A stretch of 64,000 nucleotides of DNA from Escherichia coli (GCF_017348835.2 NZ_CP071375.1); one strand, 5' to 3'; shown: positions 2,903 through 39,907, numbered from the stretch's first letter. Program-made: numbers and translations. Notes: generated by a model from the sequence alone, not told the origin.

Positions 2903-4369
2903 TCAGGAGCCCAGACGGTAGTTCGGGGACTCTTTAGTAATGGTCACGTCGTGAACGTGGCTTTCCTGAATGCCCGCACCGCTGATACGTACAAACTCCG
3001 CTTTAGTACGCAGTTCGTCGATAGTACCACAGCCGGTCAAACCCATACAGGAGCGCAGGCCGCCCATCTGCTGGTGAATGATCTCTTTCAGGCGACCTTT
3101 ATAAGCTACGCGACCTTCGATACCTTCCGGCACCAGTTTGTCGGCAGCGTTATCGCTCTGGAAATAACGGTCAGAGGAACCTTTGGACATCGCGCCCAGG
3201 GAACCCATACCACGGTAAGATTTGTAAGAACGGCCCTGGTAGAGTTCGATTTCACCCGGAGATTCTTCAGTACCCGCCAGCATGGAACCTACCATCACCG
3301 CGCTTGCGCCAGCGGCGATAGCTTTGGCGATGTCGCCGGAGAAGCGAATACCACCATCTGCGATAACCGGAATACCGGTGCCTTCCAAGGCTTCAACTGC
3401 GTCAGCAACGGCAGTGATCTGCGGAACACCTACGCCAGTAACGATACGAGTCGTACAGATAGAACCAGGGCCGATACCGACTTTAACCGCGCTGCAACCA
3501 GCTTCTGCCAGAGCGCGTGCACCTGCAGCTGTTGCCACGTTGCCGCCGATGATTTGCAGATCCGGATATTTAGCACGGGTTTCACGGATACGCTGCAAAA
3601 CGCCTTCTGAGTGACCGTGGGAGGAGTCGATCAGCAGAACGTCAACGCCAGCGGCAACCAGCGCGTCAACACGCTCTTCGTTACCCGCACCTGCGCCAAC
3701 TGCAGCACCAACACGCAGACGGCCTTGCTCGTCTTTACAGGCGTTCGGTTTACGTTCCGCTTTCTGGAAATCTTTCACGGTGATCATGCCGATCAGGTGG
3801 AATTCGTCATCAACCACCAGCGCTTTTTCAACGCGTTTTTCGTGCATTTTTGCCAGCACCACTTCACGGGCTTCACCTTCACGCACGGTGACCAGACGCT
3901 CTTTCGGCGTCATGTAAACGCTAACCGGCTGGTTCAGGTCGGTAACAAAACGCACGTCACGACCGGTGATAATACCCACCAGTTCGTTTTCTTCGGTAAC
4001 GACCGGATAGCCCGCAAAACCGTTACGCTCGGTCAGTTCTTTCACTTCGCGCAGCGTCGTGGTTGGCAGAACAGTCTGCGGATCAGTCACCACACCAGAT
4101 TCGTGTTTTTTCACACGGCGAACTTCTTCTGCCTGGCGTTCAATGGACATGTTTTTGTGGATAAAGCCGATACCGCCTTCCTGAGCCAGAGCAATAGCCA
4201 GGCGCGCTTCCGTTACGGTATCCATTGCTGCGGAAAGCATAGGGATATTCAGACGAATAGTTTTCGTCAGCTGGGTGCTGAGGTCAGCAGTATTCGGCAG
4301 AACGGTAGAATGAGCAGGAACGAGGAGAACGTCGTCAAACGTCAGAGCTTCTTTAGCGATACGTAGCAT
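2903..4369 (-). CDS. guaB: IMP dehydrogenase
   Basis: ORF track frame 2903..4438; start trimmed to [16 protein letters not shown] (488 aa). CBS domains and catalytic [11 protein letters not shown] loop present. Confidence 0.95.
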
Positions 4370-4500
4370 GGGCAATATCTCGACCAGAGTGGTTAATAAA
4401 TATTGCCGCGGCATTATACAGAGCGTAACCGATTGCATCTACCCCTTTTTGCAAAAAATGCTTGCTATCCCCGAAGGGCGGGTTACTATCGACTGAATAA

Positions 4501-5907
<1,407 letters not shown>

Positions 5908-5975
5908 GCCGGAAAAAAGGCGCCAGCATCGCATTAGGCAATAGCGCCCAGGCTACGCCAAATGCGCTCCCCTCG

Positions 5976-8900
5976 TCACTGGAAACAAGTAACCAGACCA
6001 GGTTTATTGGCTAACGTGATACAACAATCCTCTGTGCCAGTGCTCTCGTCCATCCCACACCGTTGAGAGGACAAGTAAGGGAAACTTGGCGAAGCTGGCC
6101 ATCCCAGCGAATTAAACACAGTATACAATGTCTCTAACTCATTGTATGTCGGTGCATTTTCTATATTTCCACACTGCTTCGAGATATCCCATTTGCTGGC
6201 ATCAGTAATATGCGCAGAAGCCCAGTTTTCGTAGTTAATAATCGGTGAGGATACGGGATTGGCCCCGGACGGTAATTCAGTTGTCAGTATCGGTCGATGT
6301 AATGTTTTTCCATTCACCACTGCCGTGTCTGCCATATGCCCCCAGAAGTGAGCAGAAGATACATTTGGGCTGGTCAATACGGTGAAAATAGTGTCCATCA
6401 TTGCAGTCACTGTTGGGTATTTATCCAGCGTTACCGTCAGCGGCATTTTATAACCCGGCGTATTGTCCTGACGAACAGTAAAGTTTGCCGTGCCGTCTGC
6501 CCCCGTCACGCCACTGATCTCGTTCCCACTAACCGCCAATAGGGTAGCCGCCCCCGATGATGGCTGGATGGTAATATCATCCATAGCCGCCACATCGCCA
6601 TATAGCGTCGCCCCACTATTACGCGGAGAGGCATCACCACGTCGCAGAGTAAACGCCACATTTGGCACAGGTTTCCCGGCGCTGTCTTTCACCGTCACGG
6701 TGACTGGCATTGCCTCGCCCTTCTTCACTTTCGCCGCCTGAGCGGTGGAGTCAAATGCCGTTGACGTCAGGGTGACGGTAGAAACCGTTGAGTGAGGGTG
6801 CACCAGGCACGCCTGGAAGGCGCGGCTTTTAGATACAGTCACAAGTTGACCTGTGTTGAAGTCAAATGATTCACAAGAATTCGCGCCCGCAGGACAATCT
6901 GCATTTGTCCACCACACATAGCTATTCTGTTTCACCGGCCAGCCAATCTCATTGACGATAGAGCCATTCGGATAGCGGTTGTATAAAGATTGAAGCTCAT
7001 CCAATGATGGATATCGTGCGCTTTCACAAGGGATAAGCTCCGGCAAATATCGCTGGGTAATATATGGCGCAGGCCAGCTTTCATTATTTATATTCACTTT
7101 AGTGAGCGAATAACCGCCACCGCTGGTTGCCCCCATTTCGGCCCACAGTTTCATCCGCTCAAACTGCGTTCCGTCTGCTGAGCTTACCGTTTCTGGCATA
7201 TGTCCCCAGAAGTTGGCTTTTGGCGTATCCGGGCTTGTTACTACGGTATACATCAGGTCGAGATCTGACTTTACCCCTGTTTCACGTGCAAGCGTCGCCG
7301 TAAACGGTGTTACCAGTCCCCAGGTATTATCCTGCGTAGCGGTTAACGTGATGATGCCATTACCGTCCGTAACCCCGTTCCAACTGGCGTTATCATCTGC
7401 AAATTTGTAATTGGCTTGCGCAACCGGCGTCAGGAACTGTAGCAGCAGATCATCTGCTGTCGAGCTTGTGAAATCACTCGGCGTGCGCACTTGTGCTGTC
7501 GCACGCGACAACCTGACGCTTTCATAGGCGGCAGGTCTGCCCGCATCATCCGTGACCTTGATAGTTAACGGTATTGATACGCCCTTCTTCGCCCATGCAG
7601 TCGGACGGTTGTCGTTGATGCCTGTTTTGTCCGCATTCAGCAACGTAGACGTCAACTCAATCGTCGTTGCCTCAGTGTGCGGGTCAACCAGGCAGAGCAT
7701 TAAATTGCCCGCCGTCGATGTTGTACTTTCGTTGCGGATAGCACCGCTCATCAGATCAAGCACCTGGTTATACCATGTTGAACTTGAAACAGTTTGGTCG
7801 TACGCCCACCAGTAATTACCTGCGTTAAGAGGCAGCCCCAAATCAGTTTCCAGCGCACCATTTGGATGGTCGTTGTAAAGCCCCATTAGCTCACTACTGA
7901 AGGGTTGATAAGGCGAAGTGCAGCCTGAGATCGAACTGTTCGCTTTGTTGGTTGCATCTGGTCGCGCCCAGTCTTCATTGTTGATATTAAAGGACGCAGT
8001 CCCGGACAACTCGGCCTTCAACTGTGGTCGCCTGAACGCGACGCCCGCGCTGCTGGTAAAGGTTTCCGGCATATGGCCCCAATAGTTAGCCTTCGGCGTA
8101 TCCGGGCTGGTGATCACTGTGAAAATCGCACTTAAAGATTGTGAAGCAATCGAACCATCGTCCAGTTTCGCCAACAACGGAATACGAACGCCATATCCTT
8201 TATGGAACTGATATACCGTCAACGTCGCCGTTCCGTCAGGCCCGGTAACACCATAAAAATCATCGCCCTCATTAATGATTGGCGTTTGATGATTGGATGA
8301 ATCCGTGATGTAAATTAATTTCGACTGGTAATCTGAACTTACTACATTCTGACGGCTAAGCGTCGCACCATGTTCCAGCAAGAAGGGTACATTACCCAGC
8401 AGATTTCCCTGCGCGTCGCGCGTTGTGACCTTAATGGTGATGAAATCATGATCAACTTCATAATTGGTTTTTGCTTTAACCCCCTGATTACCATCATAAA
8501 CCTGCGCTTGTTCAGAGGTTAACTCAATTGTGGCGACCTTCGGGTTAGCCGTTGTCTGGCAGGTTAAATACCCCCCTTTTGACTCCAGTACACTGCTGGT
8601 GCCATTACTCAGTTGCACACCAAGGTAATTACGATTACTTACGCTGGCACCATCGGCGGTGCTGGTGTCATAGACTTTTAATACTGGCCAGCCGTCTACA
8701 GCATGACCGCCCCAGCTTGTCGATAACGTGGTTAATGCATCTTTGGTCGGGATATTATCTGCGCCACAACCGTTATTTTTCGCATTCTTACTTGCCTGCG
8801 CTTCAGTAAACAGCGCCCAAATTTCGTTATCCTCTTCCGGGCTTTTACGTCCATTGCCGGGAGAACCACTCAGTTCTGAAAACAGGATCGGTCGCTTAAA

Positions 8901-25346: not shown

Positions 25347-25486
25347 TTTTACCTCTGTAAATTGTTCTGTTGTTGTCTGTACCAGCGTACGAGATGGCGC
25401 GGATTATAATGAGCAACAGAGCCGTTGACTATTGATGAAGGTAACATTTTTTTAAAATAAAATGAGTTTTAGCAACAACTCGACTT

Positions 25487-26341
25487 TTATGGTGTTCTCA
25501 TCCCATAGCGATGACGTTGGCAATAAAGACAATTTTGCGCATTTTGCTGAAAAGTAAGAAAGGATTTTTGACAGGTTTTACAGACTTTGCGATTAGCATG
25601 AAGATTCACAATTTTTGCCGGTAGAATCGTCAATTCAACGGTCATTGCCTGATGAAAACAAACAGCAATACAATTTTGGCATCCGTTACACAAGGCATCA
25701 TTTATTTGTAAATGGCCTTCGTTAAGCGAAAAGACCTGTTGCTCGCAGGCCCGCCAGCATGCACCGCAAAGCTGACACTTTTGAGGATCCATCATCGGGC
25801 GAGCATCACTAATCTGGGGCCAAAAATAATGTAACCGACGTAATCCTGGTTGTATTTGTGTCATCTGAACATCCGCACGCTGCACATGGAACAAACGACG
25901 CCGGGAAACATTCACCTCACTGGTATGTGGAGATACCACAGACCAGCCTTCCTCGCCATATTGCCGTAAGCGTTCGTTTAACAGCAATAATGCGCGCTCC
26001 CATGCCTTCGCCTGACTCAGATCAATCGCGATCGCTGTGATCCCCTGCTCTTTATGCCATAGCAAAAGTTCTTCCAGCGTCGGCGCAATAGTGGTGAAAG
26101 GTGCGACCAGGGTGTGATTGCGAAAATAACGTAAAGGGGAATTAACGCCACGAATAGCCTCTTGCGGGCAAATAAACTGGCAAACCGCACACTCAATACA
26201 TTGTTCCGCGTCGACCGCTACGCCCTCTTCTGTCAGCGTTAGCGCCTGTGCCGGGCAAGCCTCGACACAGGCATGACATGTTGCAAAACGAAAGCGTTGG
26301 CGCGCGCATTCCGCGCCAATCGTTATGTTATGACTTAACAT
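25487..26341 (-). CDS. Poly-ferredoxin-like protein ([4Fe-4S] CxxCxxCxxxC motifs plus C-terminal CxxC...CxxC), last gene of the Dms-like operon
   Basis: 284-aa ORF with CIECAVCQFICP, CQLCGACWRAC, CNGCQNCIAVC and CKTC...CLYC; stop/start overlap with the upstream gene at 26341. Confidence 0.6.
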   Translation of the reverse strand: MLSHNITIGAECARQRFRFATCHACVEACPAQALTLTEEGVAVDAEQCIECAVCQFICPQEAIRGVNSPLRYFRNHTLVAPFTTIAPTLEELLLWHKEQGITAIAIDLSQAKAWERALLLLNERLRQYGEEGWSVVSPHTSEVNVSRRRLFHVQRADVQMTQIQPGLRRLHYFWPQISDARPMMDPQKCQLCGACWRACEQQVFSLNEGHLQINDALCNGCQNCIAVCFHQAMTVELTILPAKIVNLHANRKVCKTCQKSFLTFQQNAQNCLYCQRHRYGMRTP

Positions 26342-27162
26342 TAGCCGATACTAAAAAAGACAAAACGCAGCATAACTTCACTCCCCACTAGCATTACGCT
26401 ACCGAATAACGCCGCCGGGATATTCTTTTTACAACCACCGACAGCAAAGAACATCATCCCAATGACGGAAATTCCCCAGCTTAGTGTCAGTATGGGTTTT
26501 AACTGTCCCAGCATCGCTAATGGCGCATGTGGCAATGTGGCTATCTGCATCGCATTTGCCGTTAAATCCCCTATCCACAACGGCTGAACCAACAAGCGCA
26601 ACAGAACCAGGAGAGCGATCACCAATACGCATCCATTACGCAGGGCATCAATCTGCGGCAAAATTCCGCTAATACGAAACACGGCTACCAGCGCTGAACC
26701 GAGAATTCCCACTGTACCTAAGAACATAATCAGCGTGTTGTAATGCTGCCAGGTGATAATCGACGTATGGATGTAAACTTGCGCCATGCAGAAAACATCA
26801 ACAATCCCGACCACTGCCGCTAGCATAAGCAGGAGTTGCCAGCCGCCTTTGCGTAACATGACCAGTAATGTGGATAAACCCAATAGCGCCAGATACAGCG
26901 TACCAAAGATAATTTCCCGACTCAGCCATGAACTGGAAAAGTGACTTAGCGCATGCATCGCATTAAGTGGATAACCCAGGTGTAAGGTAGAAATCAGTAA
27001 CCCTACGGCCCCTGCCAAAAAAGCCAACAGTAATGGCGGCCGCATAACCGGGCGGGCGCTGGAGGTGATTAAAATATGACGATGAAGAAACGCCAGCCAC
27101 AGCGTCATACCGACCGATGCCTGTAACAACAGCGTAAAAGCCATTAACGGTAATTCATGCAT
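26341..27162 (-). CDS. DmsC-family membrane anchor subunit of a DMSO-reductase-type enzyme
   Basis: 273-aa polytopic membrane protein; N-terminus MHELPLMAFTLLLQ resembles the DmsC/YnfH start; overlaps the B-subunit stop by 8 nt. Confidence 0.65.
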   Translation of the reverse strand: MHELPLMAFTLLLQASVGMTLWLAFLHRHILITSSARPVMRPPLLLAFLAGAVGLLISTLHLGYPLNAMHALSHFSSSWLSREIIFGTLYLALLGLSTLLVMLRKGGWQLLLMLAAVVGIVDVFCMAQVYIHTSIITWQHYNTLIMFLGTVGILGSALVAVFRISGILPQIDALRNGCVLVIALLVLLRLLVQPLWIGDLTANAMQIATLPHAPLAMLGQLKPILTLSWGISVIGMMFFAVGGCKKNIPAALFGSVMLVGSEVMLRFVFFSIG

Positions 27163-27784
27163 GATGTGACGCCTCCTTTTCCGCGCCCTGATGCGGTTTA
27201 ATCACCAGATTTGGCTGCGTAATCGACGAATCAGGTAAACCTTTCACATCACTGACATCGCCATACTTTTCACGCAACTCATCAATAGGGCCGAACTTAA
27301 TCGCCCCCAACGGGCACGTTGCCACGCAAATGGGTTGTTCTCCTTTAGCTTGCAGATCAATACAGAAATCGCATTTCGACATCTGCCCGGTCTGCTCATT
27401 CATTTGCGGTGCGCCGTAAGGACAGGACCATGCGCAGTAACCGCAACCGACGCACTTATCAGTATTCACGCGCACAATACCGTCTCCGGGACGCTTATGC
27501 ATCGCCATCGTCGGGCAATTTTTGGTACAGATCGGATCCGCGCAATGGTTACAGGAAACAGAAAGGGTATAAGCAAAGACATTATGACTCACACCGCCCT
27601 CTCCAGTGGCGATAAAGCCACCGCCGTTCACTTCATACACGCGGCGAAAACGTCGCCCAACCTCAAGGTTGTTTTTGTCTTTACAGGCCACCTGACACGC
27701 TTTACAGCCAGAACAACGCGAAGAGTCAATAAAGAACCCTAATTGTTTGTCGCTGACAGATGCAAATTCTTTAAATTGGCTCAT
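27155..27784 (-). CDS. DmsB-family four-cluster [4Fe-4S] ferredoxin subunit
   Basis: 209-aa ORF with four Cys-cluster motifs (CKACQVAC, CNHCADPIC, CVGCGYCAWSC, CDFC...C); overlaps the A-subunit stop by 4 nt. Confidence 0.8.
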   Translation of the reverse strand: MSQFKEFASVSDKQLGFFIDSSRCSGCKACQVACKDKNNLEVGRRFRRVYEVNGGGFIATGEGGVSHNVFAYTLSVSCNHCADPICTKNCPTMAMHKRPGDGIVRVNTDKCVGCGYCAWSCPYGAPQMNEQTGQMSKCDFCIDLQAKGEQPICVATCPLGAIKFGPIDELREKYGDVSDVKGLPDSSITQPNLVIKPHQGAEKEASHHA

Positions 27785-30162
27785 GCTTTCTCAACCTCCA
27801 CCAGCATTGTTTGATGTGAATTCCCTTTCGCCAGCGCCGTAATGCGGGTCGAACTCAGTACATTGGCGCAGCCTCCGCGATCAATACCTTGTGCATCCGG
27901 TTGCCACCATGCCCCCGCCTGCATAGCAACTACGCCAGGGATGATACGGGGGGTTATTTCCACCGGGATAATGCTCACACCACGATCGTTATAAATTTTT
28001 ACGCTATCTCCTTCGACAATCCCGCGCTGTTTTGCATCTTGCGGATTCAGCCAGAGTTTTTGCGTCTGAACTTCTTGCAGCCACGGGTTAGCATACTGGG
28101 TGGAATTAGCACGGTTTTTCCCTTTCCAGGTGATGAGCTGCAACGGGTATTTCGCCGTCAGTTTATCTTCTGGCCCTTCAAAGGCAGGGACATAGTGCGA
28201 AAGCGCGGGAATTTCTGGATCTTGCATATCAAAAAGACGCTTAGAGAAGATCTCAATTTTGCCGGAAGGCGTCGGGAAAGGATTATTCTGCGGATCGCGA
28301 ATATTTGCTTCGAAAGCGATGTGCGGCGCGCTTTTGAAAAGATGTCGACGTGTTTTTTGCAGGGTCGCGAAGTCCGGCAAATTTTCATCCGGCATCGCCA
28401 GACGAGTTTGCTCCCAGATATGCTCGATCCATTGCTTCTCATCACGTCCTTGACTGAACTCGGCTTCGACACCCAGTTTTTTCGCCACGTCACGCAACCA
28501 GTCATAATCGGTGCGACGTTCAAACTCCGGCTCAATCAGTTTTTCTGACAGAATGAGATAGCTCGCCGTTCCCCATGTTTCGCCGATATTCCAGCGTTCC
28601 ATAAAGCTGGTTTCCGGCAGCAACACATCGGCATATTTCGCGCTCGGAGTCATGAACAGATCGCTGAGTACGATGAATTCTATTTTAGATTCGTCTTCAA
28701 GGAGCTTCGCGGCCTGGTGGACGTCCGGGTTCTGGTTCGCCAGATAATTACCTGCCAGTGAGAACAGCAGGCGGATATTACTGTCGAGTTTATCGACACC
28801 TTTAAGCCCATCTTGTGGCGTAACTTTAGAAGCATCATCCGCCGCCTGCATCCAGTTCATAATCGAGATTTTCGCTTGTACCGGATTTTCTGGCATATCT
28901 GGTCCAACGCAGAATTTACGATTAGAACTACCGCCATAACCTGCCGCCCAGCCACCTTTGATGCCGACGTTACCGGTAATCGAGGCCAGTAAAGTTGAAC
29001 CTCGGGCGGTGCGTTCGCCGCAAATATGTCGCTGCGGTCCCCATCCCTGAATCAACGCTGCGGGTTTCGTGTTGGCGTAATCACGGGCCAGTTGACGAAT
29101 AGTTTGCGCTGGAACGTGGGTAATTTTTTCTGCCCATTCCGGCGTTTTGTGTATCCCATCTTTTGCGCCAAAAAGGTAGGCAACCAACGATTCGTTGGCT
29201 GGTACGCCTTCCGGCATGGAGTTTTCATCAAAACCGAGAGTATATGTGTCGATAAATGTCTTATCATGGAGATTCTCGCTGATAATGACGTACATCATCG
29301 CGTCCATCAACGCATTGTCCGTGGTCGGCAACAGCGGGATCCACTGATCGGCAAGTGAAGATACGGTGTCGGAATAGCGCGGATCCACCACGATAAAACG
29401 TGTACCGTTTTGCTTCATTTTTTGAAAATAGTAATTGGTGTGACCGAATATGGTTTCCGTTGGGTTATGCCCCCAGAGAATCACCAGTTTGGTATCCAGA
29501 AGAGTATCCATCGAGTTACCGCTCGCGGCCACGCCATACGTGTAAGGCGTGGCCGCCGCAGTATTACCCAGACTAACTGAGTGATAATATTCAAGATAAC
29601 CACCGGTTAAATTTAACAGCCGACGCGCCATCGCATCGCCAGAAAATGTTCCACCAGAAACAGCCGTCCCGACATGGACATAACGTGAAGCCGGGCCATA
29701 TTGTTGCGTGATCCTTTTCAGGTTATCGGCAATTAAGGTCGTCGCCTCATCCCATGAAATACGCTCAAATTTCCCCTCGCCCCGTTTACCGACCCGTTTC
29801 ATCGGATATTTCAGGCGGTCTGGATGATAAACAAATTTACGATAGCCGCGACCACGAACACAGGCGCGCATAATCGGCATTTGTGGATCCAATTCGTTAT
29901 CGGGAAGCGTGGTAATTTGCGTCACCACACCGTCGCACATATGCGCCCGAATATCGCACTTACCACCGCAGTCAAATGTGCTACAGGTGGGCACGACTTT
30001 ATCAGCTACTGGAGCTGTAACTTCTGGCGACGCATCTGGGGATTGCGCCTTTGCGGTAGAAGAAATAAAAGGCAAAGTGATAAGCGCGGAAGTCGCTTGT
30101 AAAAAACTACGTCGTGATACTTGCGGAAATGTAATGCGTTCCTTTTCGTCTGGCGTATCCAT
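27781..30162 (-). CDS. Tat-exported molybdopterin oxidoreductase catalytic subunit (DMSO reductase family, DmsA/YnfE-like)
   Basis: 793-aa ORF with twin-arginine signal (SRRSFLQATSAL...AKA) and an N-terminal Cys cluster (CSTFDCGGKCDIRAHMCDG) typical of the FS0-binding region. Confidence 0.85.
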   Translation of the reverse strand: MDTPDEKERITFPQVSRRSFLQATSALITLPFISSTAKAQSPDASPEVTAPVADKVVPTCSTFDCGGKCDIRAHMCDGVVTQITTLPDNELDPQMPIMRACVRGRGYRKFVYHPDRLKYPMKRVGKRGEGKFERISWDEATTLIADNLKRITQQYGPASRYVHVGTAVSGGTFSGDAMARRLLNLTGGYLEYYHSVSLGNTAAATPYTYGVAASGNSMDTLLDTKLVILWGHNPTETIFGHTNYYFQKMKQNGTRFIVVDPRYSDTVSSLADQWIPLLPTTDNALMDAMMYVIISENLHDKTFIDTYTLGFDENSMPEGVPANESLVAYLFGAKDGIHKTPEWAEKITHVPAQTIRQLARDYANTKPAALIQGWGPQRHICGERTARGSTLLASITGNVGIKGGWAAGYGGSSNRKFCVGPDMPENPVQAKISIMNWMQAADDASKVTPQDGLKGVDKLDSNIRLLFSLAGNYLANQNPDVHQAAKLLEDESKIEFIVLSDLFMTPSAKYADVLLPETSFMERWNIGETWGTASYLILSEKLIEPEFERRTDYDWLRDVAKKLGVEAEFSQGRDEKQWIEHIWEQTRLAMPDENLPDFATLQKTRRHLFKSAPHIAFEANIRDPQNNPFPTPSGKIEIFSKRLFDMQDPEIPALSHYVPAFEGPEDKLTAKYPLQLITWKGKNRANSTQYANPWLQEVQTQKLWLNPQDAKQRGIVEGDSVKIYNDRGVSIIPVEITPRIIPGVVAMQAGAWWQPDAQGIDRGGCANVLSSTRITALAKGNSHQTMLVEVEKA

Positions 30163-30217
30163 CTTGCGTTCCCGAAAATGAAAAAATAAATATTCACGTA
30201 TTTATTCGAGAACAATG

Positions 30218-30231
30218 CTGATAACAATCAA
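30218..30231. promoter_or_regulatory. Candidate FNR/CRP-family box upstream of the Dms-like operon
   Basis: cTGATaacaATCAA matches the FNR consensus TTGAT-N4-ATCAA at 9 of 10 positions, centred about 62 bp upstream of the A-subunit start codon in an AT-rich spacer. Confidence 0.3.
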
Positions 30232-30325
30232 ATAATTAGTCGTTTAAAAAAACGTGAGATTATTAAATTATTAATGTATTCCAAATATAAATGCCATAAT
30301 TAGATTAATAAATATTTTGTATATT

Positions 30326-32638
30326 TCACTGAAATGAAAAATATACTGTCGCGATTTGCCCCACCTCATCCATCACCAGCAATTGATAATCGCCTTTATC
30401 CATCAAATGCAGGGTCACGTTGCGCCCGCGTTCAGTTAACGGTTCGCCATTCAGAAACCACCAGCGTTCACCTGCTCCTCCACTTGATTGCACCGGCAAA
30501 GTCGCTTCTGCTGCGCCCGGTAAACGTTTAATAATCGCGCCATCGCGAACGCCTGTCAGCTGCAGCGGGAGTTGTGCATGGTGACCGTATGGCGGGCAAA
30601 TTGTCGAGGCCGGTGGTAAGCGCACAGCGCGACGTTCTGATGCGGGCAACCAGGGTTCCAGCGGTAGCGGCCAGACATTTATCATTTCTTGTCGCGCTTG
30701 CGGGCAATCAGCGGCAACACGTTTGCCATTTTCATCCAGCCAGATGGGGAAACGAATGCCATTAATGCCTTCCTGCTCCGGCAGTAATAGAGTTGGCGGC
30801 TGACTCCTGTCCAGCAGCCAGGTTGCCAGGCGGCGGCGACAGTTACCGTCACCTTCCGGCAAAGACTGTCCGCCCGGCCAGCAGATAACGCCACGAGTGA
30901 CTGAGTTCGGGCGCGGGTCTTCCGGCAGATTAGCACTGCGCGACAGTAAGATATTATTGACCTGATTCAACAATGGTACGGCGCTGGCAAAACCAAACTG
31001 ACCAACAACGGGCGTGCCGTCCGGTCTGCCAGTCCAGATCCCAATGACATAGCGAGCGTTAACCCCAATCGCCCAGGCGTCACGATAGCCATAGCTGGTG
31101 CCCGTTTTCCATGCCAGTGGGGCGACGCGCGGCAAGGCACCATCCGGCAAGGGTTGCGCTTCATCAGCCATAATCCGGCGAATGATCCACGCAGCCCCCG
31201 ACGACATTAAAGGCCGTTCAAGCAGCGGATCGTCAGGCTGTAAGCGCAATTTGCCTGCCTTGCCGTGGCGAGCAAACGCGGTATACGCTGCCGCCATATC
31301 TTCCAGTTTTGCACCAGCGCCGCCGAGAATGAGCGAAAGATTCGGCGCCGCACCGTTGGGCAAATATAACGGCAATCCAACATTGCGTAACTTTGCCGCA
31401 AACCGTTTCGGTCCATAGGCTTCCAGTACCTGCACAGCAGGTAAATTCAGCGAGCGCACCAGCGCCTCGCTCATGCTGATCGGGCCATGAAAACCGCTAT
31501 CAAAGTTACCTGGTCGATAATCACCGGTGCGCCGGGGGACGTCTTGCAGCAGTGATGCCGGGTGGATCAAGCCTTCATCCAGCGCCAGACCATAAACAAA
31601 CGGTTTGAGCACCGATCCTGGCGATCGGATCGCATTGACCATATCAACATGACCAAAGCGTGAATCATCGTTGAGATCTACCGATCCCACCCAGCCGCGA
31701 ACACGCATATCGGTATGATCAACCACGATCATCGCCAGTGAGCTGCGCGGCGGCAATCGTCCTTTCCAGTTTTGCGCCAGTTCTTCCAGACGTCGCTGAA
31801 GCCCGGCATCCAGCGTAGTAACGATTTTGTCGCTTTTACTTTTACCGAGCATCATGCGCGAAAACAGCGGTGCCAGTTGCGGCATTTGTCGGGGTGCCAG
31901 CCAGATGGGTTCTTCCCTTGACTCTTTTACCTGCTCACGGGACCACACACCTTGCACGGCCATCCGTTCGAGCACTTTATTACGCGCGGCTTCGGCACGC
32001 TCCGGCCAACGATCCGGGCGAAGACGGCTGGGCGCTTGCGGCAAAACCGCCAGCATTGCCGCCTCGGAATAGCTTAAATTCGCAGGCGATTTTCCGAGAT
32101 AAGCCCAACTTGCCGCACCGATCCCCTGCAACGTACCGCCAAACGGAGCGCGGTTAAGATACAAGGTCAGAATTTCACGCTTAGACAAATGCCACTCCAG
32201 TTGCAACGCGCGCCAGAGCTGGCGAATTTTGCCGCCAAATGTTTTGGGGTGAGGATCAAGCAGACGAGCAACCTGCATAGTGAGCGTGCTGCCACCGGAA
32301 ATAACCCGTCCCGAAGTGAAATCTTGCCATGCTGCGCGCGCCACCGAGAATGGATTCACCCCAGGATGCTTCCAGAACCAGCGATCTTCATAATTGATCA
32401 GCGCTTCAAGGTAACGTGGAGAAACATCTTCGATTGTTACAGGATAACGCCAGATGCCGTCAGCATCGGCGAAGCGCCAGAGCGGCGTACCATCCTGCGC
32501 CACGACCACTCGTGCGGGATTGACTTCATGCAGCGGTAGAGGCCAGAGTTTATCTGCTCCCCACGCTGCAAGAAAAAGGAGAAATGGCGCAGCTGCCAGC
32601 GTTATCCAGCAGCCGCGTTTGGTTAACAAGCGAGGCAT
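30326..32638 (-). CDS. pbpC: Penicillin-binding protein 1C (transglycosylase/transpeptidase)
   Basis: 770-aa ORF; abuts the upstream yfhM stop. Confidence 0.93.
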   Translation of the reverse strand: MPRLLTKRGCWITLAAAPFLLFLAAWGADKLWPLPLHEVNPARVVVAQDGTPLWRFADADGIWRYPVTIEDVSPRYLEALINYEDRWFWKHPGVNPFSVARAAWQDFTSGRVISGGSTLTMQVARLLDPHPKTFGGKIRQLWRALQLEWHLSKREILTLYLNRAPFGGTLQGIGAASWAYLGKSPANLSYSEAAMLAVLPQAPSRLRPDRWPERAEAARNKVLERMAVQGVWSREQVKESREEPIWLAPRQMPQLAPLFSRMMLGKSKSDKIVTTLDAGLQRRLEELAQNWKGRLPPRSSLAMIVVDHTDMRVRGWVGSVDLNDDSRFGHVDMVNAIRSPGSVLKPFVYGLALDEGLIHPASLLQDVPRRTGDYRPGNFDSGFHGPISMSEALVRSLNLPAVQVLEAYGPKRFAAKLRNVGLPLYLPNGAAPNLSLILGGAGAKLEDMAAAYTAFARHGKAGKLRLQPDDPLLERPLMSSGAAWIIRRIMADEAQPLPDGALPRVAPLAWKTGTSYGYRDAWAIGVNARYVIGIWTGRPDGTPVVGQFGFASAVPLLNQVNNILLSRSANLPEDPRPNSVTRGVICWPGGQSLPEGDGNCRRRLATWLLDRSQPPTLLLPEQEGINGIRFPIWLDENGKRVAADCPQARQEMINVWPLPLEPWLPASERRAVRLPPASTICPPYGHHAQLPLQLTGVRDGAIIKRLPGAAEATLPVQSSGGAGERWWFLNGEPLTERGRNVTLHLMDKGDYQLLVMDEVGQIATVYFSFQ

Positions 32639-38698: not shown

Positions 38699-38994
38699 TG
38701 CTGGTCTGGTTCGCGGCCTTTCCAGCAGGTTGACTTGTGTTGCCGGAGCAACGCAGGCACCCCACAGTGTTGAAATACTCTCTTTTATGCCTGGCTGTGT
38801 CAAGATAATAAACAGAGTAATTATTCAAACATGAGAGTATTATTCTTAATGGCCCTTTTCGCCGTCTCGCAAACGGGCGATGGCTTTAGGAAAGGATGTT
38901 CCATGACCGTAAATACAGGCACCCCACAGTGCTTGCTATCGCGGCAATATCGCCAGTGGTGCTGTCGTGATGCGGTCTTCGCATGGACCGCACA

Positions 38995-39120
38995 ATGAAG
39001 ATACGGTGCTTCTGTATCGTACTTATTGTTTCTGGTGCGCTGTTAACCGAGGTAAATAATAACCTGAGTCTCTCCGGCGACAATTTACTGGTGGTTAACA
39101 ACCTTCAGAGCAGCAAGTAA
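38995..39120 (+). CDS. Small hydrophobic protein, candidate type I toxin (RyfA/TimP-like), copy 1
   Basis: 41-codon ORF MKIRCFCIVLIVSGALLTEVNNNLSLSGDNLLVVNNLQSSK followed directly by a terminator; an in-frame ATG 12 nt upstream is an alternative start. Confidence 0.45.
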   Translation: MKIRCFCIVLIVSGALLTEVNNNLSLSGDNLLVVNNLQSSK

Positions 39121-39152
39121 GCCCGAATGCCGCCCTTTGGGGCGGCATATTT
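39121..39152 (+). terminator. Rho-independent terminator of toxin transcript 1
   Basis: gcccgaatgccgccctttggggcggcat followed by attttag. Confidence 0.5.
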
Positions 39153-39156
39153 TAGA

Positions 39157-39237
39157 TTATCCGATTCTGTTTAAAGTCACGCAAAAAACCACCCCAGCGA
39201 CGTTCATAGAATGGCGCAATATGTTCGATATTAAAAT
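39157..39237 (-). pseudogene. Duplicated 3' fragment of sseB (about 26 codons)
   Basis: Minus-strand translation ...IEHIAPFYERRWGGFLRDFKQNRI* matches the SseB C-terminus; homology to 39830..39907 stops abruptly at 39237. Confidence 0.55.
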
Positions 39238-39351
39238 GACCTGGCTTATTAGTCCGAATTCAGACAAATATAAACAAATCCCGCTCAATATTAAAAATAC
39301 TAACCGGTAAAAGATATTACTTAAACATGTAAATTCACTTTCTTTAAGCAA

Positions 39352-39907
39352 CAAAAAACCGCCAAAATCAGGCGGTTATTTGTTGCCGGTTTGGTTCGCG
39401 GCCTCTCCAGCAGGTTGTATTACCGTAGTAATGCAAGCGCGTCTCAGCGGAGACAATACTCGCCAGTAACTCTCTTTTTGTCAAGTAAAAGAGAGTTATT
39501 ATTGTTCTGTTAGTGTATTATCCACTGCGGCCCTTTCCGCCGTCTCGCAAGCGGGCGCTGGCTTAAGGAAAGGATGTTCCGCGACCGTTAGAGCAAGCGC
39601 GTCTCAGCGCTTGCTATCGCGGCAATATCGCCAGTGGTGCTGTCGTGATGCGGTCTTCGCATGGACCGCACAATGAAGATACGGTGCTTCTGTATCGTAC
39701 TTATTGTTTCTGGTGCGCTGTTAACCGAGGTAAATAATAACCTGAGTCTCTCCGGAAACAATTTACTGGTGGTTAACAACCTTCAGAACAGCAGGTAAGC
39801 CCGAATGCCGCCCTTTGGGGCGGCATATTTTAGATTATCCGGTTCTGTTTAAAGTCACGCAAAAAACCACCCCAGCGACGTTCATAGAACGGCGCAATAT
39901 GTTCGGT
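39352..39907. repeat. Tandem repeat unit 2 of the ryfA-type small-toxin locus (approx. 556 bp)
   Basis: Begins with a terminator-like hairpin aaaaaaccgccaaaatcaggcgg and runs into the real sseB 3' end. Confidence 0.7.
39673..39798 (+). CDS. Small hydrophobic protein, candidate type I toxin (RyfA/TimP-like), copy 2
   Basis: 41-codon ORF MKIRCFCIVLIVSGALLTEVNNNLSLSGNNLLVVNNLQNSR; three substitutions relative to copy 1. Confidence 0.45.
   Translation: MKIRCFCIVLIVSGALLTEVNNNLSLSGNNLLVVNNLQNSR

What the first reader, a model, noticed from the sequence alone, without database searches (positions are those of the whole stretch)
25487..30162. Extra DmsABC-type molybdoenzyme operon with a fourth poly-ferredoxin gene, inserted between ndk and pbpC
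ndk and pbpC are neighbours in K-12 as I recall it. Here four overlapping, translationally coupled genes intervene: a Tat-signal molybdopterin catalytic subunit (793 aa), a four-cluster ferredoxin (209 aa), a DmsC-like anchor (273 aa) and a 284-aa protein with three full CxxCxxCxxxC motifs plus a C-terminal CxxC...CxxC pair. The fourth gene has no counterpart in dmsABC. The substrate of this paralogous anaerobic reductase is not evident from sequence.
Basis: partly seen in the sequence, partly recalled or inferred. Interest (0 to 1): 0.6.

Follow-up and report, generated by a model that had tools for sequence, protein, structure and literature searches.

The report
Known extra DmsABC-type operon, unnamed ferredoxin
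This is the E. coli copy of an anaerobic membrane reductase operon already annotated in O157:H7 and studied in Salmonella (STM2530-2527, "psr1"), inherited rather than inserted; its fourth gene belongs to a widespread, unnamed family of helper ferredoxins.

Summary
Four overlapping minus-strand genes at 25487-30162 encode a Tat-signal DmsA/YnfE-family catalytic subunit, a four-cluster DmsB, a DmsC anchor and a 284-aa polyferredoxin. They lie between ndk and pbpC, which are adjacent in K-12.

The interpretation needs correcting. The operon is accessory in E. coli: 380 of 5426 complete genomes carry it, mostly O157:H7 and O55:H7. But the same four genes occupy the same pbpC-ndk slot in Salmonella, Enterobacter, Lelliottia and other genera. 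It is therefore an old enterobacterial locus that most E. coli probably lost, not an insertion.

It is the counterpart of Salmonella STM2530-2527. That enzyme is not needed for DMSO respiration, and a 2025 preprint calls it a periplasmic sulfate reductase ("psr1"). I consider the substrate unsettled. A conserved FNR box upstream predicts anaerobic induction.

The fourth gene does have counterparts outside E. coli dmsABC. It belongs to an uncurated family with 20 invariant cysteines and a conserved internal twin-arginine-like motif. In every informative context the family sat in a cluster with a molybdoenzyme catalytic gene, usually beside a DmsD/TorD-type chaperone gene. I infer a NapF-like cytoplasmic maturation role.

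The operon is already known. The fourth-gene family is the only fresh lead.

The parts
27781..30162 (-). Catalytic subunit A (793 aa). Tat signal, FS0 motif C60-x4-C-x3-C...C, Ser197 as predicted Mo ligand. Counterpart of Salmonella STM2530 / STM14_3103 ('Psr1A').
   Evidence: ORF. (TIGR02166 1127 bits; below the DmsA, YnfE and YnfF-specific cutoffs). (Ser197 aligns with the Mo-ligand Ser of Rhodobacter DMSO reductase). (FS0 spacing). (83-84% identity to the Salmonella arizonae/diarizonae gene at the same locus).
27155..27784 (-). Electron-transfer subunit B (209 aa) with four [4Fe-4S] Cys groups. No signal peptide, so presumably co-exported with A as in DmsAB (inference).
   Evidence: TIGR02951 265.8 bits, cutoff 214.1. 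(four Cys groups). (58% identity to DmsB and YnfG).
26341..27162 (-). DmsC-type membrane anchor and quinol-oxidising subunit (273 aa, about 8 TM helices).
   Evidence: Pfam DmsC 3.6e-23, full length. (hydropathy). (33-34% identity to DmsC and YnfH).
25487..26341 (-). Fourth gene: 284-aa polyferredoxin. Domain order: N-terminal 2x[4Fe-4S] domain with an atypical first motif, a small alpha/beta middle domain (ELLLWH...N122), a linker with the internal Tat-like motif S146-R-R-R-L-F151, a second 2x[4Fe-4S] domain, and a C-terminal 4-Cys ribbon. No signal peptide and no TM segment.
   Evidence: only generic Fer4 matches. (20 invariant Cys; RR motif 95-97% conserved across 58 sequences). (AF2 pLDDT 93, dipping at residues 141-160). 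(no solved structure with this architecture). (no strongly hydrophobic segment).
30218..30231 (-). FNR-box-like site TTGATTGTTATCAG, one mismatch to TTGAT-N4-ATCAA, centred about 62 nt upstream of the A start codon.
   Evidence: one of four 1-mismatch sites in 64 kb. (sites with 0-2 mismatches at the equivalent position upstream of A in all eight orthologous loci examined, perfect in both Salmonella loci and in Enterobacter). PMC12636705 lists STM14_3103 among the loci most activated by FNR.
30163..30325 (-). AT-rich pbpC-to-A intergenic region (window 30000-30499 has GC 0.40) that holds the operon promoter.
   Evidence: The sigma-70 consensus scan found nothing above background here.
25479..30325 (.). 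The 4.85-kb segment present here and absent from K-12-type genomes, where 16 bp stand in its place. The last 8 codons of pbpC (30326-30349) also differ between the two alleles.
   Evidence: every operon-less genome in the 27 sampled rows matches only query 1-132, i.e. 25347-25478. (junction sequences). (the pbpC 3' 150 nt are 90.7% identical to K-12, against about 98.7% elsewhere).

Best explanation
The segment is the E. coli copy of an old enterobacterial operon, counterpart of Salmonella STM2530-2527 / STM14_3103-3100 ('psr1').

Enzyme (shown by sequence): an FNR-type promoter precedes four translationally coupled genes. A carries a Tat signal, an FS0 [4Fe-4S] site with the unusual C-x4-C-x3-C spacing, and a Ser-ligated Mo-bisPGD site. 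B is a four-cluster ferredoxin. C is a haem-less DmsC-type quinol-oxidising anchor.

Enzyme (inferred from DmsABC): A and B are loaded with cofactors in the cytoplasm, exported together by Tat, and docked on C at the periplasmic face. Quinol electrons then pass C -> B -> FS0 -> Mo to an acceptor. The acceptor is not DMSO or methionine sulfoxide, according to Salmonella genetics. One preprint claims it is sulfate, but this is not settled.

Fourth protein (inferred): it is not part of that electron wire. It is a cytoplasmic accessory factor comparable in role to NapF. It would help load or proofread Fe-S clusters of the A/B precursor before export, and it may use its conserved internal twin-arginine-like peptide to dock on a signal-peptide-binding chaperone (DmsD/TorD type) or on the Tat receptor.

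History (inferred): most E. coli lost the operon by a deletion between ndk and pbpC. The O157:H7/O55:H7 lineage and scattered other strains keep it.
For: Correspondence to the Salmonella operon and ancestry:
- The same A-B-C-D order lies between pbpC and ndk in six other genera.
- A and B are 83-89% identical to those copies, against 77-82% for the flanking pbpC.
- The C-x4-C-x3-C FS0 motif is the one PMC12636705 reports for the Psr1A clade.
- A's 43% identity to DmsA equals the value reported for STM2530.
- There are no mobility genes in the segment.
- Every operon-less genome in the 27 sampled rows shows the same ndk-side boundary.

Regulation:
- The FNR box is conserved in all eight orthologous loci examined.
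- FNR activation of the Salmonella gene is reported in PMC12636705.

Enzyme type: family models pass their cutoffs for A and B, Pfam DmsC matches C, and the Mo-ligand Ser aligns.

Accessory role of D:
- In 8 of 8 informative non-enterobacterial contexts, D relatives lie in a cluster with a Mo-bisPGD A gene. Seven of the eight also show a called four-cluster B gene. The partner varies: DmsC in L015, L017 and L022, NrfD in L019, and multihaem cytochromes or none in L020, L021, L026 and L027.
- In 7 of those 8, a NarJ/TorD/DmsD-family chaperone gene is within two genes of D. In L019 a TatA/E gene follows D directly.
- D has no signal peptide and no TM segment.
- The DmsC-type anchor has no haem and no known cytoplasmic redox site (established knowledge of DmsABC and PsrABC).
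- The S-R-R-x-[LFW]-[LF] motif is 91-97% conserved across sequences averaging 27% identity, and it lies in a lower-confidence linker.
- E. coli NapF also has four Cys motifs, a non-exporting SRRGIL motif, and an atypical dicluster domain that aligns with D's N-terminal domain (hhalign probability 96.6%).
- NapF is cytoplasmic, binds NapA, and is needed for NapA Fe-S assembly in Rhodobacter sphaeroides (PMC10609526).
- The Salmonella ABC genes alone on a plasmid were reported to complement (PMC12636705). This fits a helper rather than an obligatory subunit.
Against: - No experiment bears on D, so its location, partners and metal content are all inferred.
- DmsB also lacks a signal peptide and is exported by riding with DmsA, so 'no signal peptide' does not prove that D stays in the cytoplasm.
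- D overlaps C by one base and is co-translated like a structural subunit.
- The enterobacterial operon has no chaperone gene of its own.
- Similarity to NapF is confined to ferredoxin modules, and the NapF family model was not among the listed matches. The NapF analogy is therefore about role, not membership.
- D evolves fast (about 39% identity between E. coli and Salmonella), which could also mean weak constraint.
- The direction of the indel inside E. coli was not tested on a strain phylogeny.
- I did not hold the S. Typhimurium sequence. The link to STM2530-2527 rests on subsp. arizonae and diarizonae loci, AFDB hits in subsp. enterica, and matching published descriptions.
Confidence: 0.6

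Rival explanations
1. The fourth protein is a true electron-transfer subunit of a four-subunit enzyme. It would either be co-exported with A-B and extend the Fe-S wire to a periplasmic partner or substrate site, or sit at the cytoplasmic face and link the complex to a cytoplasmic donor or acceptor.
For: It has sixteen cysteines for four [4Fe-4S] clusters plus a four-Cys site, all invariant. It is translationally coupled to C. Its nearest sequence and fold matches are electron-wire polyferredoxins such as FwdF, MvhB and HycF. DmsB shows that a signal-less Fe-S protein can be exported by riding with A.
Against: Its gene neighbours are the A gene (and usually B) and the maturation genes, while the membrane partner changes among DmsC, NrfD, cytochromes or none. 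DmsC/PsrC-type anchors have no haem or cytoplasmic redox site to connect to (established knowledge). E. coli DmsABC and YnfFGH function without such a subunit. ABC alone was reported to complement in Salmonella. The conserved Tat-like peptide is unexplained by a pure wire role.
Confidence: 0.2
2. The operon is a horizontally acquired island inserted between ndk and pbpC in some E. coli lineages.
For: Only 7% of complete E. coli genomes carry it. Its GC content is slightly lower than the flanks (0.48-0.50 against 0.53-0.56). PMC12636705 infers repeated lateral transfer of psr clusters at deeper branches.
Against: The same position and gene order occur in six other enterobacterial genera and in two cryptic Escherichia species. 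Divergence matches the flanking pbpC. There is no integrase, transposase or IS-type ORF and no tRNA gene at the site. I did not run a repeat search at the junctions. The ndk-side flank is 131/132 identical to K-12. Every operon-less genome in the 27 sampled rows shares one boundary, as expected of a single deletion allele.
Confidence: 0.1
3. The enzyme is a periplasmic, ATP-independent sulfate reductase that reduces sulfate to sulfite at the FS0 cluster without using molybdenum, as claimed for the Salmonella counterpart Psr1.
For: PMC12636705 reports four things. Membranes lacking all four dmsA paralogs lose benzyl-viologen:sulfate activity. Single paralogs restore part of it. psr1 mutants make less H2S. 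The Mo-ligand Ser is dispensable. The window protein shares the Psr1A-type C-x4-C-x3-C FS0 motif.
Against: The report is an unreviewed preprint, and the mechanistic EPR and moa work was done on Psr3, not Psr1. From established thermodynamics (my own knowledge), the sulfate/sulfite couple is near -516 mV. That is why known pathways first activate sulfate to APS, and direct reduction by menaquinol (about -74 mV) would be strongly uphill. The Mo site, the Ser ligand and the pterin-binding domains are fully conserved here, which argues that Mo chemistry is under selection. Nothing in the sequence identifies sulfate as the substrate.
Confidence: 0.25

Closest known systems
Salmonella enterica STM2530-STM2527 (STM14_3103-3100; 'psr1' in PMC12636705)
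   Same: Same four genes in the same order at the same pbpC-ndk locus. Identity to the S. arizonae/diarizonae copies is A 83-84%, B 86-87%, C about 52%, D about 39%. Same C-x4-C-x3-C FS0 motif, conserved Ser ligand, and an FNR box upstream.
   Different: The E. coli copy is present in only about 7% of complete genomes. C and D are strongly diverged. No experimental data exist for the E. coli copy. The published work ignores the fourth gene.
E. coli DmsABC and YnfEFGH-DmsD
   Same: Tat-exported, Ser-ligated Mo-bisPGD A subunit with FS0, a four-cluster B, and an eight-helix haem-less C anchor. A and B pass the shared family models.
   Different: A is only 40-43% identical and falls below the DmsA, YnfE and YnfF-specific cutoffs. 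FS0 spacing is x4 rather than x3. Loops are missing near the active-site funnel. There is no chaperone gene in the operon, and there is an extra polyferredoxin gene. The Salmonella counterpart does not support DMSO or methionine sulfoxide respiration.
NapF, the cytoplasmic Fe-S accessory protein of periplasmic nitrate reductase
   Same: Four [4Fe-4S] Cys motifs, one with a long first spacing. A twin-arginine-like motif with no hydrophobic region after it (NapF SRRGIL; D SRRRLF). Encoded with a Tat-exported Mo-bisPGD enzyme, often near the signal-binding chaperone (PMC10609526).
   Different: D is 284 aa against 164 aa. The domain order differs, with the RR motif internal rather than N-terminal. 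D has an extra alpha/beta middle domain and a C-terminal 4-Cys ribbon. Sequence similarity is limited to ferredoxin modules, and the NapF model was not among the listed matches.
Shewanella oneidensis DmsH and Haemophilus influenzae DmsE (accessory genes of dms operons)
   Same: Both are encoded at the end of dms operons next to a TorD/DmsD-type chaperone. DmsH is predicted to be cytoplasmic, and its deletion lowers DMSO and iodate reduction (PMC11302344). DmsE is described as a NapF homologue (PMC8340005). Family members with an A-B-fdx-chaperone layout occur in Paraferrimonas, and a Gallibacterium (Pasteurellaceae) relative appears among the fold matches.
   Different: Homology of DmsH or DmsE to this family was not tested because I could not obtain their sequences. 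These are leads only.

Membership tests
DMSO/selenate-family reductase complex (DmsABC type) | A subunit passes the family model TIGR02166 | tested here: met
   1127.4 bits against a cutoff of 777.7, full length.
DMSO/selenate-family reductase complex (DmsABC type) | Twin-arginine signal peptide on A | tested here: met
   VSRRSFLQATSALITLPFISSTAKAQ at the N-terminus.
DMSO/selenate-family reductase complex (DmsABC type) | FS0 [4Fe-4S] Cys group and Ser ligand to Mo | tested here: met
   C60-x4-C65-x3-C69...C (the spacing variant of the Psr1A clade). Ser197 aligns with the Mo-ligand Ser of Rhodobacter DMSO reductase and with the DmsA/YnfE/YnfF Ser.
DMSO/selenate-family reductase complex (DmsABC type) | Four-cluster B subunit and DmsC-type anchor | tested here: met
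   TIGR02951 265.8 bits against 214.1. Four Cys groups. Pfam DmsC 3.6e-23. About 8 TM helices.
DmsA, YnfE or YnfF proper (specific enzymes) | Score above the curated enzyme-specific cutoffs | tested here: not met
   NF011566 DmsA 708 against 1600. YnfF 692 against 1650. YnfE 667 against 1675. Identity 40-43%.
DmsA, YnfE or YnfF proper (specific enzymes) | DMSO or selenate reductase activity | not testable with these tools
   The Salmonella counterpart is not required for DMSO or methionine sulfoxide respiration.
Salmonella STM2530-2527 / psr1 operon (orthology) | Same locus, same gene order, high identity of A and B | tested here: met
   pbpC-A-B-C-D-ndk in S. enterica subsp. arizonae and diarizonae. 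A 83-84%, B 86-87%. Subsp. enterica homologues of D appear in AFDB. The LT2/14028s sequence itself was not held.
Salmonella STM2530-2527 / psr1 operon (orthology) | Psr1A-type FS0 motif C-x4-C-x3-C and FNR control | tested here: met
   Motif present as described in PMC12636705. Conserved FNR box.
Salmonella STM2530-2527 / psr1 operon (orthology) | Periplasmic sulfate reductase activity | not testable with these tools
   Claimed only in a preprint, and the mechanistic work was done on a paralogue.
NapF family | Match to the curated NapF model, or NapF-like length and order | tested here: not met
   NapF was not among the best 25 families listed for the whole protein or for its three parts. BLASTP against E. 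coli NapF gives only 28 bits over one motif. RefSeq names it a generic '4Fe-4S dicluster domain-containing protein'.
NapF family | Four [4Fe-4S] motifs plus a non-exporting twin-arginine-like motif, encoded with a Tat-exported Mo enzyme | tested here: met
   The motif is internal here, whereas it is N-terminal in NapF.
NapF family | Cytoplasmic location and binding to the catalytic subunit | not testable with these tools
   No signal peptide or TM segment. No interaction data.
Redox enzyme maturation proteins (DmsD/TorD/NarJ, PF02613) | Pfam Nitrate_red_del domain in the fourth protein | tested here: not met
   Only Fer4-type domains were found. The middle domain matches no NCBIfam model.
Horizontally inserted genomic island | Mobility genes, a tRNA target, or clearly foreign composition, and absence from related genera at that site | tested here: not met
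   No integrase- or transposase-like ORF. GC 0.48-0.50 against 0.53-0.56 in the flanks. The locus is syntenic in six other genera. Flanking repeats were not searched.

The most novel reading that the evidence does not exclude
The fourth gene defines a widespread, uncurated family of cytoplasmic polyferredoxins dedicated to Tat-exported Mo-bisPGD enzymes. Members occur in Enterobacterales, Vibrionaceae, Ferrimonadaceae, Pasteurellaceae and Bacillaceae, with longer forms in Alphaproteobacteria. Their conserved internal twin-arginine mimic would dock on the signal-peptide chaperone or the Tat receptor, coupling Fe-S (FS0) loading to export proofreading. That would be a second, NapF-independent solution to the same problem.
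Probability: 0.3. Interest if true: 0.6.

Novelty: already known. Interest (0 to 1): 0.3.

Why it matters
The operon itself is not new. It is annotated in hundreds of RefSeq E. coli genomes, including O157:H7, and its Salmonella counterpart has been studied in two preprints.

Three points are still useful.

1. E. coli O157:H7 and a minority of other strains carry the enzyme that a 2025 preprint calls a virulence-linked 'periplasmic sulfate reductase'. E. coli strains with and without the operon could therefore serve as natural controls for testing that unusual claim.

2. The presence/absence pattern is most simply a loss, not a gain. This changes how the locus should be read in pan-genome studies.

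3. The published work leaves out the fourth gene. Here it turns out to belong to a conserved family whose gene neighbourhoods and internal Tat-like motif point to a maturation role, and that role is directly testable.

Tried and rejected
- Direct homology of the fourth protein to NapF. BLASTP found only single ferredoxin motifs, and the NapF model was not among the listed NCBIfam matches. hhalign aligned only one dicluster domain. I kept NapF as an analogy and rejected membership.
- A chaperone (PF02613) or any named domain in its middle part. None was found.
- Linking the family to Shewanella DmsH. The word-indexed searches gave no Shewanella sequence. The profile search was swamped by generic ferredoxins, and the Paraferrimonas query returned only itself. 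This remains untested.
- A literature search by EDL933/Sakai locus tags returned only unrelated papers.
- The sigma-70 and terminator consensus scans were at background level and were not used.
- A correlation between the polyferredoxin and the unusual C-x4-C FS0 spacing was rejected. Associated A subunits carry C-x4-C, C-x3-C, H-x3-C and C-x3-C-x3-H variants.
- A clean deletion junction with flanking direct repeats: I saw none when reading the junction sequences, though I did not run a repeat search. The alleles differ by 16 bp against 4.85 kb, plus 24 diverged bases at the pbpC end.

Full report
OBSERVATION

They overlap by 4, 8 and 1 nt, so translational coupling is plausible.

- A begins with a twin-arginine signal (VSRRSFLQ...AKAQ). 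It passes the DMSO/selenate-family A-subunit model (TIGR02166, 1127 bits, cutoff 777.7). It falls far below the DmsA, YnfE and YnfF-specific cutoffs.
- B passes the DmsB model and has four Cys groups.
- C matches Pfam DmsC over its full length and has about eight hydrophobic helices.
- D has only generic 4Fe-4S ferredoxin matches.
- ndk and pbpC are adjacent in K-12 MG1655, 148 bp apart.

DISTRIBUTION AND ORIGIN

The full operon is present in 379-380 of 5426 complete E. coli genomes, always on the chromosome and always at this site. Roughly three quarters of the sampled carriers are O157:H7-type genomes. O55:H7 and scattered animal and human isolates make up the rest. The operon is intact in O157:H7 strain Xuzhou21. 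Within E. coli it is therefore accessory.

A scan of one genome per species found the same A-B-C-D genes between pbpC and ndk in several other taxa:
- Salmonella enterica subsp. arizonae and diarizonae
- Enterobacter, Lelliottia, Huaxiibacter and Pseudocitrobacter
- two cryptic Escherichia species

Identity to the window is 83% for A and 86-89% for B, against 77-82% for the flanking pbpC. The segment contains no integrase, transposase or IS-type ORF. Its GC content is only slightly below that of the flanks.

Every operon-less genome in the 27 sampled rows matches the window up to the same base (25478) on the ndk side. In those genomes 16 bp replace the 4.85 kb. The last eight pbpC codons also differ between the alleles, and pbpC divergence rises toward the junction.

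The simplest reading is an ancestral enterobacterial locus that most E. coli lost through one old deletion allele, not an insertion. I did not test this on a strain tree.

IDENTITY WITH A STUDIED SALMONELLA OPERON

Position, gene order and the fourth gene match the description of STM2530-STM2527 in bioRxiv 10.1101/2022.11.29.517730. That paper also gives 43% identity to E. coli DmsA, the same value I find for the window protein. [quoted passage not shown] Typhi and S. Paratyphi A.

A Research Square preprint of October 2025 (PMC12636705) renames STM14_3103 (the same gene) psr1A. It makes these claims:
- psr1A and two paralogues are periplasmic, ATP-independent sulfate reductases acting at the FS0 cluster without molybdenum.
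- The genes are among the loci most activated by FNR.
- The Psr1A clade has a C-x4-C-x3-C FS0 motif.

I found that motif independently in the window protein, in Salmonella, and in two more distant relatives.

A one-mismatch FNR box (TTGATTGTTATCAG, 30218-30231) lies about 62 nt upstream of the A start codon. Boxes with 0-2 mismatches sit at the equivalent place in all eight orthologous loci examined. Anaerobic, FNR-dependent expression is therefore well supported.

The predicted Mo-ligand serine (Ser197) and the pterin-binding domains are conserved.

On the substrate, the Salmonella genetics argue against DMSO and methionine sulfoxide. The sulfate claim is unreviewed, and its mechanistic work was done on a paralogue. 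From established thermodynamics (my own knowledge), the sulfate/sulfite couple lies near -516 mV, far below menaquinol, which is why known pathways first activate sulfate. I therefore treat the substrate as open.

THE FOURTH GENE

Family size. A profile search of 1.84 billion representative proteins found 76 clusters at E<1e-30. Most were full-length relatives of 280-310 aa, and there is also a 330-360 aa form.

Taxonomic spread. Fold search in AFDB found full-length relatives in Salmonella, Enterobacter, Citrobacter rodentium, Rahnella, Hafnia, Proteus, Providencia, Morganella, Cronobacter, many Bacillaceae and Gallibacterium. All are named only 'ferredoxin' or '4Fe-4S protein'.

Conserved features across 58 diverse members with mean identity 27%:
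- All 20 cysteines are invariant. Four groups could bind four [4Fe-4S] clusters, the first with an atypical C-x9-CxxCxxxC spacing. The remaining four form a C-terminal CxxC...CxxC site.
- The next most conserved features are an ELL motif, an invariant Asn in a small middle domain, and an internal S-R-R-x-[L/F/W]-[L/F] motif.
- In that motif the R/K-R positions are 95-97% conserved and the hydrophobic pair 91-95%.
- The motif matches the Tat consensus SRRxFLK, but it lies at residues 146-151 and no hydrophobic stretch follows it.

Structure. AlphaFold2 gives a confident model (pLDDT 93, pTM 0.89). Confidence dips exactly around the motif. No solved structure shares the architecture, only the ferredoxin modules.

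GENE NEIGHBOURHOODS

Ten relatives were looked up. Two lay on contigs too short to be informative. The other eight each lay in a cluster with a molybdopterin catalytic gene, and seven of the eight also had a called four-cluster B gene. The partner varied:
- A-B-DmsC-fdx (L017)
- fdx, radical SAM, chaperone, A-B-DmsC (L015)
- A-B-NrfD, chaperone, fdx, TatA/E (L019)
- A-B-fdx, chaperone (L021, Paraferrimonas)
- A-B-DmsC-fdx, chaperone (L022)
- multihaem cytochrome, A-B, chaperone, cytochrome c, fdx (L020, L026)
- multihaem cytochrome, A, chaperone, fdx, with no intact B gene called (L027)

A NarJ/TorD/DmsD-family chaperone gene lay within two genes of the ferredoxin in seven of the eight. The associated catalytic subunits are as little as 27-33% identical to the window's A and carry different FS0 variants. 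The family therefore tracks the catalytic gene and its maturation genes, not one enzyme type or one anchor.

MECHANISM PROPOSED FOR D

D has no signal peptide and no membrane segment. DmsC/PsrC-type anchors have no haem or cytoplasmic redox site (established knowledge). I therefore infer that D is a cytoplasmic accessory protein with a role like that of NapF.

NapF is a cytoplasmic four-cluster protein that binds NapA. In Rhodobacter sphaeroides it is needed to assemble NapA's Fe-S cluster (PMC10609526; PMC3712460 and PMC4159696). E. coli NapF also carries a non-exporting SRRGIL motif. Its atypical dicluster domain aligns with D's N-terminal domain (hhalign probability 96.6%).

D is not a NapF family member, however. 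BLAST similarity is limited to single motifs, the NapF model was not among the listed matches, the domain order differs, and D has two extra domains.

The idea that the internal Tat-like peptide docks on the signal-binding chaperone or on TatBC is speculation. It is consistent with the motif's conservation and with the gene neighbourhoods.

Two literature leads were not tested. Shewanella DmsH is cytoplasmic, lies next to the TorD-like DmsG, and its deletion lowers DMSO and iodate reduction (PMC11302344). Haemophilus DmsE is described as 'NapF-like' (PMC8340005). I could not obtain either sequence.

RIVALS

- A structural electron-wire role for D remains possible. DmsB shows that a signal-less Fe-S protein can be co-exported, and D is translationally coupled to C.
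- Horizontal insertion is unlikely, given the synteny across genera.
- The sulfate-reductase claim concerns the substrate, not the architecture. It needs biochemical confirmation.

OTHER OBSERVATIONS

An unexplained feature is the steep identity gradient along the operon: A about 83%, B about 87%, C about 52% and D about 39% between E. coli and Salmonella. The same gradient holds between all genera compared.

VERDICT

The 'insertion' and 'no counterpart' readings are not supported. The operon is already known and annotated, and its counterpart has been studied. The substrate is still not convincingly established. The only fresh element is the family-level picture of the fourth gene, which is testable.

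Noticed in passing
window 38849-39831 (+): Two full-length ryfA RNA matches (38849-39153 and 39527-39831) with an IS128 sRNA match between them (39185-39395). This looks like a duplicated small-RNA locus.
   Followed up: no
window 30326-30475 (pbpC 3' end): PbpC ends ...GQIATVYFSFQ here but ...GQIATVKFVMQ in K-12-type genomes. The terminal 150 nt of pbpC are only 90.7% identical to K-12, against about 98.7% over most of the gene. This suggests two old haplotypes around the indel.
   Followed up: partly
L005 (Pseudocitrobacter faecalis), A gene about 4100-6540: The catalytic-subunit ORF is only 457 aa, and only residues 332-792 align. It may be a pseudogene. Frameshifts are also reported for S. 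Typhi and S. Paratyphi A in the bioRxiv paper.
   Followed up: no
AFDB entry K8A6I6 (Cronobacter condimenti 1330): A 560-aa protein annotated as 'DMSO reductase chain C' is a DmsC plus polyferredoxin fusion. A separate 282-aa polyferredoxin from the same strain also exists (P0221). This is probably a frameshift or an annotation artefact at the 1-nt gene overlap.
   Followed up: no
L020, L026, L027 (A subunits, N-terminal 90 aa): Catalytic subunits of the multihaem-cytochrome-linked clusters read SCAHNCGSRH. A histidine stands where DmsA-type enzymes have the third FS0 cysteine.
   Followed up: no
L015 6634-7974: A 446-aa radical-SAM gene sits between the polyferredoxin gene and the NarJ/TorD-type chaperone gene, upstream of an A-B-DmsC cluster.
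   Followed up: no
E. coli ZF8-1 (hit H90) and UniProt Q8XAA2 (O157:H7): Strain ZF8-1 keeps only 37% of gene D, a partial deletion. The old O157:H7 annotation Q8XAA2 gives D as 192 aa, which misses the conserved N-terminal dicluster domain. RefSeq now calls it 284 aa.
   Followed up: partly
window 25403-25431 (-): The best sigma-70-like match in the region (TAGTCA-17-TATAAT, 10 of 12) lies in the 132-bp stretch shared with K-12, upstream of ndk. No terminator-like site was found between gene D and ndk, so read-through from the operon into ndk is possible.
   Followed up: no
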